Source: a virus. From it: a stretch of 64,000 nt of DNA. Under the pieces are notes generated by a model. That model saw nothing but the letters and a program-made list of their open reading frames with translations, had not been told where the DNA came from and ran no database searches. How positions within the stretch are numbered: the stretch's first letter is position 1; each line of letters starts with the position of its first letter. Positions 3,696 through 4,272 of the stretch are shown here, in pieces. The position numbers and the translations under genes were made by a program. The DNA is taken from positions 32,001 to 96,000 of IMG/VR virus record IMGVR_UViG_3300009514_000888; one strand, written 5' to 3'.

Positions 3696-3788
3696 GACGA
3701 ATAAGAAAGCTGGGGACTTGAACGTCAATACCGCGATCTTCGGATAGTTGGCATGACCTTTAACCTACCCCAGATACTATTTTGTCGC
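3696..3788 (+). ncRNA. Structured ncRNA module 1 (Y-RNA-like chassis with minimal UUCG insert)
   Basis: Outer stem CTGGGG/CCCCAG, shared core GGACTTGAACGTCAATACCG...ATGACCTTTAACCTA, inner ATC-TTCG-GAT hairpin. Confidence 0.7.
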
Positions 3789-3845
3789 AAGTGCGATGTA
3801 GATGAACGCATGACAAGTGAATAATGGTGGTTTTGGGATGCCCAA

Positions 3846-3948
3846 CTACTAACAGAGGGTGGGGTCAGGACTTTCGCGTCAATTCCGTGATTAGACAATT
3901 TCACACCCTTTGACCCGCCCCCTACCTGATCCTATCCCCTGTTAGTAG
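3846..3948 (+). ncRNA. Structured ncRNA module 2 (Y-RNA-like chassis)
   Basis: About 24-bp outer stem CTACTAACAGAGGGTGGGGTCAGG/CCTGATCCTATCCCCTGTTAGTAG. Core GGACTTTCGCGTCAATTCCG...TTGACCCGCCCCCTA. Confidence 0.75.
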
Positions 3949-3953
3949 AACAT

Positions 3954-4106
3954 AAACGGGAACTCTTGCGTCAATACCGAGTAGGCATTATAAACCCCAG
4001 GATACGGGTTCGAATCCCGTTCGGCGCTTTGCGTAGTTTAGTACGCGCCGATAGCTCAATTGGCAGAGCAGGAATCTCAACGTTGACCCAAACCTTATCC
4101 CGTTTT
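3954..4106 (+). ncRNA. Structured ncRNA module 3 with circularly permuted tRNA-like domain (YrlA-like)
   Basis: Outer stem AAACGGGA/TCCCGTTT and core CGTCAATACCG...TTGACCC. Inside, in order: T arm ACGGG-TTCGAAT-CCCGT (4004-4020), acceptor 3' strand TCGGCGC, loop, acceptor 5' strand GCGCCGA, D arm GCTC-AATTGGCA-GAGC (4054-4069). Confidence 0.8.
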
Positions 4107-4115
4107 TTAATACTG

Positions 4116-4272
4116 ACCGCCGGAAGCGAATAGATAGGACTCGCGCGTTAATACCGTGACATAGCTCAATGGTAGAGCAACACCCCTAAAGGTGCGATTG
4201 AAGGTTCAAACCCTTCTGTCTCAACAGAACTTAACCCGCAACCTACCTATCTATTTCCTTCCGGCGGTTTTT
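4116..4272 (+). ncRNA. Structured ncRNA module 4 with embedded non-permuted tRNA-like domain
   Basis: About 23-bp outer stem ACCGCCGGAAGCGAATAGATAGG/CCTATCTATTTCCTTCCGGCGGT followed by a U-tract. Core CGTTAATACCG...TTAACCC. Inside: D arm GCTC-AATGGTA-GAGC, arm CACC-CCTAAA-GGTG (6-nt loop), T arm GAAGG-TTCAAAC-CCTTC. Confidence 0.8.

What the first reader, a model, noticed from the sequence alone, without database searches (positions are those of the whole stretch)
3696..4272. Four ncRNAs built on one conserved chassis with swappable cargo
Seen: four long hairpins (3696-3788, 3846-3948, 3954-4106, 4116-4272) have unrelated outer stems but share GGA(A)CU..CGUYAAUWCCG on the 5' side and (U/A)URACC...CCU on the 3' side. 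The GUCAA/UUGAC helix becomes GUUAA/UUAAC in module 4, a compensatory change that supports a real structure. The cargo differs: a UUCG mini-hairpin, a small hairpin, a permuted tRNA mimic and an unpermuted tRNA mimic. Known: bacterial Y RNAs combine a Ro-binding stem (3' strand with UUGAC) and an effector domain, and are encoded next to Ro genes. Inference: this is a family of adaptor RNAs for the upstream TROVE/VWA protein, each tethering a different partner.
Basis: partly seen in the sequence, partly recalled or inferred. Interest (0 to 1): 0.88.

Follow-up and report, generated by a model that had tools for sequence, protein, structure and literature searches.

The report
Phage Ro60-like particle, four Y-like RNAs
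A giant uncultured phage encodes four small RNAs that share one conserved "handle" but carry different tips (two plain hairpins and two tRNA look-alikes). They sit beside a very diverged cousin of the RNA-surveillance protein Ro60 and an enzyme-like ARPP partner, and this three-part module recurs in well over 100 phage and bacterial loci and appears to be undescribed.

Summary
Four RNAs at 3707-3777, 3846-3948, 3951-4109 and 4116-4273 share one chassis. A covariance model built without module 1 finds exactly these four in the 186-kb phage record, module 1 included.

The upstream 533-aa protein matches no Pfam TROVE model and no PDB sequence, but its confident model superposes on Ro60 over both domains (Z 18.6, 410 residues) and keeps an invariant MIDAS motif. 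An ARPP-1 gene follows it here and in 132 of 140 homologous loci.

The same RNA chassis lies next to the gene pair in at least about 118 of these 140 loci, from phages, Planctomycetota, Myxococcota and Bacteroidota. All 363 model hits are on the gene strand. In 122 aligned RNAs, all 15 chassis pairs show compensatory changes. Cargo varies across the family: unpermuted tRNA mimics, permuted ones and plain hairpins.

The RNAs fail membership of Rfam YrlA: 33.5 bits against a threshold of 69, and no GNCGAA motif.

My reading is a new, widespread branch of the Ro60/Y-RNA particle. Binding, expression and the ARPP role remain untested.

This scan had already found the same system on at least seven other genomes. 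I found no paper that describes it.

The parts
930..2531 (+). Ro60-fold protein (helical TROVE-like ring plus vWA/MIDAS domain), 533 aa
   Evidence: No Pfam, NCBIfam or PDB sequence hit. AF2 model pLDDT 91.8. All of Foldseek's top 10 are Ro60/TROVE structures. VIA Z 18.6, 410 residues aligned, 13% identity to 1yvr. D368/S370/S372 invariant in 40 homologues.
2536..3567 (+). ARPP-1 family protein, probably translationally coupled to the Ro-like gene (GGAGGG at 2522-2527, Ro-like stop at 2529-2531, ATG at 2536)
   Evidence: Pfam PF20208, 1.4e-28, 100.5 bits. Start context. A homologue lies directly downstream of the Ro-like gene in 132 of 140 loci. No solved structural relative.
3581..3616 (+). 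Terminator-like hairpin with T run, ending the protein operon
   Evidence: 16-bp stem with 9 G-C pairs followed by TTTCTT.
3668..3695 (+). Sigma-70-like promoter for the RNA array (TTGACA, 16 nt, TACTAT)
   Evidence: 10 of 12 consensus matches; the only promoter-like site in 3400-4700. Consensus match only.
3707..3777 (+). Module 1: chassis with a UUCG-capped mini-hairpin as cargo
   Evidence: Found by R1 although left out of its seed (25.6 bits, E 5e-05). R2 gives 35.1 bits, E 7e-07. Fold.
3846..3948 (+). Module 2: long closing stem, chassis, 4-bp hairpin as cargo
   Evidence: R1 47.9 bits. MFE -45.3 kcal/mol, z -7.4.
3951..4109 (+). Module 3: chassis with a circularly permuted tRNA-like cargo (T arm, closed acceptor-like stem, D arm), ending in a U run
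   Evidence: R1 73.4 bits. Rfam YrlA model positions 24-84, 33.5 bits, below the threshold of 69.
4116..4273 (+). Module 4: chassis with an unpermuted tRNA-like cargo. Its long outer stem plus U run looks like the array's terminator
   Evidence: R1 82.8 bits. Rfam tRNA 46.5 bits at 4155-4224. ARAGORN tRNA-??? with a 2-nt anticodon call. MFE -60.2 kcal/mol.

Best explanation
The four RNAs are the RNA subunits of a diverged Ro60-type ribonucleoprotein.

Proposed mechanism, by step:
- Transcription (inferred from consensus sites): the array has its own promoter and ends at the stem and U run of module 4.
- Folding (shown by covariation): each module closes through its own terminal stem.
- Docking (inferred by analogy with Ro60 and the bulged helix of Y RNAs): the conserved handle is where the ring-shaped Ro-like protein binds. 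The handle comprises the AACU loop, the variable helix, the C.C mismatch, the GUYAA/UURAC helix and UWCMG.
- Cargo (inferred): the variable distal part projects away from the ring. It presents a tRNA mimic or a plain hairpin to other factors such as tRNA-binding enzymes or nucleases, acting as a tether, gate or decoy.
- ARPP-1 (inferred from invariable linkage): it is a subunit or the enzyme of the same particle.

The module often sits inside tRNA gene arrays. I therefore think its business is surveillance or protection of the tRNA pool, which in a phage would probably act against host attack on tRNAs.
For: 1. Ro60 fold over both domains and an invariant MIDAS motif.
2. RNA model hits:
- R1, 80 viral loci: 169 of 169 hits on the gene strand.
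- R1, 60 cellular loci: 92 of 92.
- R2, remaining loci: 102 of 102.
- Hits lie beside the gene pair in arrays of 1-6.
3. Structure in 122 RNAs from 77 sources (the window plus 76 loci):
- 93.5% of cells paired, against 60% in shuffles and 30-46% with slid partners.
- All 15 pairs have changes on both sides.
- The independent MAFFT alignment of 8 modules shows the same swaps.
4. Near-invariant unpaired bases mark a likely protein contact site: A13, C14, U15, U27, C29, G31.
5. Cargo classes on one chassis: 54 ARAGORN-callable tRNA-like, 13 more with D before T, 9 with T before D, 22 with a T arm only, 21 with none.
6. Their anticodons do not fit real tRNAs: Ser and Leu anticodons on RNAs too short for the long arm that those tRNAs carry, plus AUC, UCA and 2-nt anticodon calls.
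7. Precedent:
- Bacterial and phage Ro60 bind neighbouring Y RNAs that carry tRNA-like domains (PMC4201824, PMC12135203).
- A decoy role against an anticodon nuclease has been proposed for YrlA (PMC7790460).
8. ARPP-1 linkage in 132 of 140 loci.
Against:
- The protein is not a recognisable TROVE member by sequence, so RNA binding is inferred from fold alone.
- The handle lacks the GNCGAAN0-1G motif of bacterial Y RNAs.
- ARPP-1 co-occurs as strictly as the Ro-like protein, so co-occurrence cannot say which of them binds the handle.
- Alignments A4 and A5 were fitted to the model's structure, which inflates the pairing counts somewhat.
- Related sequences can beat the column shuffles without any structure.
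Confidence: 0.78

Rival explanations
1. The handle is recognised mainly by ARPP-1 rather than by the Ro-like ring. The Ro-like protein would then do another job, for example threading damaged RNA ends through its hole or holding ARPP-1 on its MIDAS site.
For: ARPP-1 is linked to the RNAs as tightly as the Ro-like protein (132 of 140 loci). It has invariant Q21, Q81, H83, C104, E185 and R222. PMC9503650 proposes action on ribose-containing substrates.
Against: No RNA-binding fold or relative was found for ARPP-1. In other contexts ARPP occurs without such RNAs (PMC9503650). Ro60 proteins are proven Y-RNA binders.
Confidence: 0.1
2. The modules are precursors of tRNA-like RNAs. The conserved leader-trailer stem would be a processing or stability element read by host RNases (RNase P, RNase Z, RNase E), with no direct tie to the Ro-like protein.
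For: Many cargos score as full tRNAs at 48-61 bits. Two modules of L002 encode a discriminator base plus CCA after the acceptor stem (read). M. smegmatis YrlA is cut by RNase P and gains CCA (PMC4201824). The loci often sit in tRNA arrays.
Against: About a sixth of the modules (21 of 122), including window modules 1 and 2, have no tRNA-like cargo yet keep the same handle. The true tRNAs of the flanking arrays gave no full-length handle hits. The handle is found only beside the Ro-like/ARPP pair: four hits in 186 kb.
Confidence: 0.08
3. The elements act in cis as leaders or attenuators that control the Ro-like/ARPP operon.
For: In most loci the RNAs lie directly upstream of the Ro-like gene on the same strand.
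Against: In the window, in L002 and in L082 the RNAs lie downstream of ARPP. In the window they follow a terminator and have their own promoter-like site. Arrays of up to six modules with different cargo do not suit a leader. [quoted passage not shown]
Confidence: 0.03

Closest known systems
Bacterial Ro60 (Rsr) with YrlA/YrlB Y RNAs (Salmonella rsr-yrlBA-rtcBA, M. smegmatis, mycobacteriophages; PMC4201824, PMC7790460)
   Same: A Ro60-fold protein next to two or more small RNAs on the same strand. The RNA ends pair into a stem with a conserved internal motif. One RNA carries a permuted tRNA-like domain (T arm, closed acceptor-like stem, D arm) and another is a plain hairpin.
   Different: The protein is invisible to Pfam TROVE and to PDB sequence profiles. 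The handle motif is AACU ... GUYAW-UWCMG / WURAC, not GNCGAAN0-1G. Rfam YrlA scores only 33.5 bits against a threshold of 69. Unpermuted tRNA mimics are the commonest cargo. Arrays reach six RNAs. The fixed protein partner is ARPP-1. I did not screen the loci for RtcB/RtcA; none of the window ORFs that I scanned matched them.
Thermus phage phiLo Ro60 with Yrl1/Yrl2 (PDB 9KOP, 9L5Y; PMC12135203)
   Same: A phage-encoded Ro60 ring with neighbouring Y-like RNAs. It is also a structural match to the window protein (Z 15.3-15.8).
   Different: The phiLo RNAs were found through the CGAA motif and lie upstream. No ARPP partner or tRNA-mimic array is reported. The phiLo protein is an annotated Ro60 homologue.
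Metazoan Y RNAs bound by Ro60 (PDB 1YVP)
   Same: A terminal stem holds a conserved helix interrupted by an unpaired C. From my own knowledge, the 3' strand UUGAC is the same as in vertebrate Y RNAs, where GGUC(C)GA pairs with UUGAC.
   Different: The 5' strand here is GUCAA with a C.C mismatch below the helix, not a bulged C inside it. There is no Pol III context. The cargo is a tRNA mimic.
ARPP proteins of ARG-centred NAD/ADP-ribose conflict systems (PMC9503650)
   Same: The same Pfam family (PF20208), with an invariant Cys and invariant Gln residues.
   Different: That paper lists ARPP with ARG, HIRAN, WYL and deacetylase partners. A Ro60-like/Y-RNA context does not appear in the passages I read.

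Membership tests
Rfam YrlA (RF02553) | Score at or above the gathering threshold of 69 bits | tested here: not met
   Module 3 scores 33.5 bits and matches only model positions 24-84, the tRNA-like core. No YrlA hit at E<0.01 in six related loci.
Bacterial Y RNA (YrlA/YrlB/Yrn1 type) | GNCGAAN0-1G motif near the 5' end (PMC4201824) | tested here: not met
   Regex over 3696-4272 finds none.
Y RNA (functional class) | Encoded next to a Ro60 gene, on the same strand | tested here: met
   All 363 model hits lie on the gene strand beside the Ro60-fold gene. Ro60 status rests on fold only.
Y RNA (functional class) | The 5' and 3' ends pair into a stem that holds a conserved, interrupted helix | tested here: met
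   15 of 15 pairs covary and 93.5% of cells are paired in 122 RNAs. The unpaired C opposite C/U is conserved.
Y RNA (functional class) | Bound and stabilised by Ro60 | not testable with these tools
   Needs pull-down or a gel shift. The complex tool takes no RNA, and it was unavailable in any case.
Ro60 / TROVE (Pfam PF05731) | Match to the TROVE profile | tested here: not met
   None of 40 family members matches at E<=1. No match in the whole phage record, while the control genomes do match. The family profile finds no PDB sequence.
Ro60 / TROVE (fold) | Helical-repeat ring followed by a vWA domain with a MIDAS site | tested here: met
   Z 18.6, rmsd 4.7, 410 of 520 residues to 1yvr, spanning model residues 35-510. 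DxSxS, T423 and D445 are invariant.
tRNA (RF00005), module 4 | Cloverleaf above threshold, a 7-nt anticodon loop and a matched acceptor stem | tested here: inconclusive
   46.5 bits, above the threshold of 29. ARAGORN calls tRNA-??? with a 2-nt anticodon. Two acceptor pairs are non-standard. The element is enclosed in the handle. I read it as a mimic.
ARPP-1 (PF20208) | Match above the gathering threshold | tested here: met
   100.5 bits against a cut-off of 27.

The most novel reading that the evidence does not exclude
The Ro-like/ARPP-1 pair and its set of tRNA mimics form a tRNA-centred conflict module. The handle loads different tRNA look-alikes onto one protein platform, which baits, senses or neutralises enzymes that attack tRNAs (anticodon nucleases, tRNA-modifying toxins). 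ARPP-1 would act as a new enzyme on the captured RNA or protein. In phages this would be a counter-defence. In bacteria it would guard the accessory tRNA arrays in which it is embedded.
Probability: 0.25. Interest if true: 0.9.

Novelty: new variant of a known kind. Interest (0 to 1): 0.76.

Why it matters
Ro60/Y-RNA particles are conserved from bacteria to humans, but their function in bacteria is still poorly understood. This branch is missed by the standard protein and RNA models tried here (Pfam TROVE, Rfam YrlA). It is nevertheless widespread in giant phages, Planctomycetota, Myxococcota and Bacteroidota.

It adds three things:
- a fixed enzyme-like partner of unknown fold, ARPP-1;
- a clean natural experiment in modularity, with one handle and many cargos, including both permuted and unpermuted tRNA mimics in the same array;
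- a recurring position inside tRNA gene arrays.

It gives a strongly covarying RNA family ready for curation. Several hosts are cultured, so the role of Y RNAs as tethers or decoys could be tested directly. They include Rhodopirellula sp. SWK7, Stieleria magnilauensis, Thalassoglobus neptunius and Minicystis rosea.

Tried and rejected
- blastn of 900-4600 against the phage collection: no match.
- PHROGs and NCBIfam for both proteins: nothing.
- phmmer and family profiles against PDB sequences: nothing for the Ro-like protein. Only chance-level rows for ARPP-1.
- ARPP-1 fold searches: Foldseek against PDB gave no match at E<=0.001. VIA wide search gave a best Z of 4.3. No functional lead came from structure.
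There is no result either way.
- A simple motif scan (11-mer with one mismatch) found the chassis only in the window and in L002. The family consensus differs at one base (UACAG, not UACCG), so a covariance model was needed.
- MAFFT put the 3' strand of module 1 in the wrong register, so I left module 1 out of the seed and used it as a test.
- Stop-codon recoding of ARPP in some loci was rejected. The stops lie at the ends of the tblastn segments (before the start, or at the gene's own end in L007), not inside the gene.
- Degenerate tRNA pseudogenes were rejected, because of the covariation and because the same handle occurs on non-tRNA cargo.

Full report
**Source.** The window is part of an IMG/VR virus record of 186 kb that CheckV rates 39% complete, so it comes from a very large phage.

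**The observation.**
- The region 3696-4272 holds four hairpin-closed elements.
- Folded alone, modules 1, 2 and 4 are clearly more stable than shuffles (z -3.0, -7.4, -4.9). Module 3 is not (z -1.8).
- Read side by side, all four share one layout:
  - a closing stem ending in GG/CC;
  - an internal loop with 5' A(A)CU opposite 3' CCUA;
  - a short helix whose sequence differs in each module (UUGAA/UUUAA, CG/CG, UUG/CAA, GCG/CGC);
  - a C.C mismatch;
  - the helix GUCAA/UUGAC (GUUAA/UUAAC in module 4, GUCA/UGAC in module 1);
  - U(A/U)CCG, then the cargo.

**An independent test.**
- The closest viral relative, L002, has a Ro-like protein 44% identical to the window's. It carries five modules with the same layout.
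- I built covariance model R1 from those five plus window modules 2-4. Module 1 was left out on purpose, because MAFFT had mis-registered its 3' strand.
- R1 finds exactly four hits on both strands of the window. Module 1 is among them, full length, in the structurally sensible register, at E 5e-05.
- It finds no further significant hit in the whole 186-kb record.

**The upstream protein (930-2531, 533 aa).**
- It has no Pfam, NCBIfam, PHROG or PDB sequence match.
- About 120 homologues of the same length exist, and all lack precomputed Pfam domains.
- None of 40 homologues matches Pfam TROVE even at E<=1. Several touch vWA models weakly.
- The TROVE model finds nothing in the phage record, although it does ring in control genomes.
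- The family profile finds no PDB sequence.
- The alignment has an invariant DxSxS (D368, S370, S372) with T423 and D445, which is a MIDAS site.
- The AlphaFold model is confident (pLDDT 91.8, pTM 0.88).
  - Foldseek's ten best PDB matches are all Ro60/TROVE structures: Xenopus, human, Deinococcus and Thermus phage phiLo.
  - VIA-align gives Z 18.6, rmsd 4.7 A, 410 aligned residues and 13% identity to 1yvr, spanning residues 35-510. Chains with a vWA domain alone reach only Z 12.5.
- It is therefore a Ro60-fold protein that sequence models do not recognise.

**The second gene.**
- It is an ARPP-1 family protein (PF20208, 100.5 bits).
- Its likely start is ATG 2536. A GGAGGG site lies inside the end of the Ro-like gene, whose stop is at 2529-2531.
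- tblastn finds an ARPP-1 homologue directly downstream of the Ro-like gene in 132 of 140 loci.
- Its model is confident (pLDDT 89), but it has no solved relative: Foldseek finds nothing at E<=0.001 and VIA gives a best Z of 4.3.
- Q21, Q81, H83, C104, E185 and R222 are invariant. This fits the enzyme-like Cys/Gln signature noted in PMC9503650, which proposes action on ribose-containing molecules.

**The family.**
- I fetched 80 viral loci and 60 loci from cellular genomes or MAGs. The latter are mostly Pirellulaceae and other Planctomycetota, Myxococcota including the Minicystis rosea chromosome, and Bacteroidota.
- Model hits:

| model | loci searched | hits on gene strand |
|---|---|---|
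| R1 | 80 viral | 169 of 169 |
| R1 | 60 cellular | 92 of 92 |
| R2 (rebuilt from 122 hits) | remaining loci | 102 of 102 |

- Most hits are full length and lie in arrays of one to six within 3 kb upstream of the Ro-like gene.
- By my count at least about 118 of 140 loci have a full-length hit at E<=0.01. Most of the rest are contigs cut at the gene.
- In the window, L002 and L082, its closest relatives, the array lies downstream of ARPP instead.
- Structure in the 122-RNA alignment:
  - 93.5% of cells pair, against 60% in column shuffles and 30-46% with slid partners.
  - All 15 pairs show changes on both sides.
  - The caveat is that this alignment was fitted to the model.
  - The unfitted MAFFT alignment of 8 modules shows the same swaps.
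- Unpaired A13, C14, U15, U27, C29 and G31 are nearly invariant, as expected for a protein contact surface.
- The family consensus after the conserved helix is UACAG. The window and L002 share the variant UACCG.

**Cargo.**
- Classes among the 122 RNAs:

| cargo class | RNAs |
|---|---|
| ARAGORN-callable unpermuted tRNA-like | 54 |
| D arm before T arm, no ARAGORN call | 13 |
| T arm before D arm (permuted, like YrlA) | 9 |
| T arm only | 22 |
| D arm only | 3 |
| no tRNA motif (75-125 nt, all but one 106 nt or less) | 21 |

- Single arrays mix these types, as the window does.
- The tRNA-like cargos score 48-61 bits on the Rfam tRNA model.
- Their anticodons do not fit real tRNAs: Ser and Leu anticodons on RNAs too short for the long arm that those tRNAs carry, plus AUC, UCA and 2-nt anticodon calls.
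- Window module 4 is called tRNA-??? with a 2-nt anticodon (my reading: a 6-nt loop, CCUAAA). It also has two non-standard acceptor pairs.
- These are mimics rather than working tRNAs.

**Comparison with known systems.**
- The closest are bacterial and phage Ro60 with YrlA/YrlB or Yrl RNAs (PMC4201824, PMC12135203).
- Shared features:
  - a neighbouring Ro60-fold gene;
  - a stem formed by the RNA ends, with a conserved interrupted helix;
  - a permuted tRNA-like domain in one RNA;
  - a plain hairpin in another.
- Membership of Rfam YrlA fails. Module 3 scores 33.5 bits against a threshold of 69 and matches only the tRNA-like core. No YrlA hit appears in six related loci. The GNCGAAN0-1G motif is absent.
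- The fixed ARPP-1 partner, the dominance of unpermuted mimics and the array size are also different.
- I found no paper describing this combination.
- This scan has already reported the same system on at least seven other genomes, with the same reading. My results were obtained independently and agree.

**Mechanism.**
- Shown:
  - a conserved structured RNA family with modular cargo;
  - strict linkage to a Ro60-fold protein and to ARPP-1.
- Inferred:
  - The ring protein docks on the handle, as Ro60 does on the Y-RNA stem.
  - The cargo recruits or distracts tRNA-recognising factors.
  - ARPP-1 is part of the particle.
- The promoter-like site at 3668-3695, the terminator at 3581-3616 and the stem with U run of module 4 suggest a separate RNA operon. 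These are consensus matches only.
- U-rich tails follow the closing stem in most family members.

**Context.**
- In several bacteria the module sits at the end of dense tRNA gene arrays: 23 tRNAs upstream in L095, 19 in L098, 12 in L086 and roughly 45 tRNA-model hits in L104.
- In the window it is followed by a CUA-anticodon tRNA and a PTH2-like gene that needs UAG read-through.
- This points to a role centred on tRNA. A decoy role against anticodon nucleases, already proposed for YrlA (PMC7790460), is the most interesting open possibility.

Noticed in passing
window 4443-4515: A clean tRNA with anticodon CUA (an amber suppressor; ARAGORN labels it Pyl) lies 170 nt after the RNA array: Rfam tRNA 58.6 bits. 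In L002 the array is likewise followed by a tRNA, Met-CAU at 11160-11236.
   Followed up: partly
window 6040-6402: Read with TAG as a sense codon, this frame matches peptidyl-tRNA hydrolase PTH2 above Pfam's cut-off (26.7 bits against 23). It appears to need amber read-through, and the suppressor tRNA is 1.5 kb upstream.
   Followed up: partly
L095 1-5200; L098 3200-5400; L086 400-2600; L104 whole locus: In Planctomycetota and in Minicystis rosea the Ro-like/ARPP/RNA module sits at the 3' end of, or inside, dense same-strand tRNA gene arrays of 12 to about 45 tRNAs in 5-13 kb.
   Followed up: partly
window 4274-4442: The spacer between module 4 and the suppressor tRNA folds into several hairpins (MFE -48.6 kcal/mol, z -2.6). 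It matches neither Rfam nor the chassis models. Another first-stage note calls it omega-RNA-like; I did not test that.
   Followed up: no
window 112-486, 5176-5778, 7847-8551: Neighbouring genes are a staphylococcal-nuclease-like endonuclease (PF00565, phrog_452), an HD-domain phosphohydrolase (PF13328/PF01966) and a FeeM-like N-acyl amino acid synthase (PF21926, 1.7e-35).
   Followed up: no
L002 10452-10581 and 10639-10768: Two tRNA-like cargos of the related phage encode a discriminator base plus CCA right after the acceptor stem, before the 3' strand of the handle (read). This suggests they could be released or recognised as mature-like tRNA ends.
   Followed up: no
A5 columns 272-275 (family alignment): In most of the 122 RNAs the closing stem is followed by a U-rich tail (U in 55-92 of about 120 sequences per column). 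Window modules 3 and 4 show it too. This hints at a termination signal for each module or a 3'-end binding signal.
   Followed up: no
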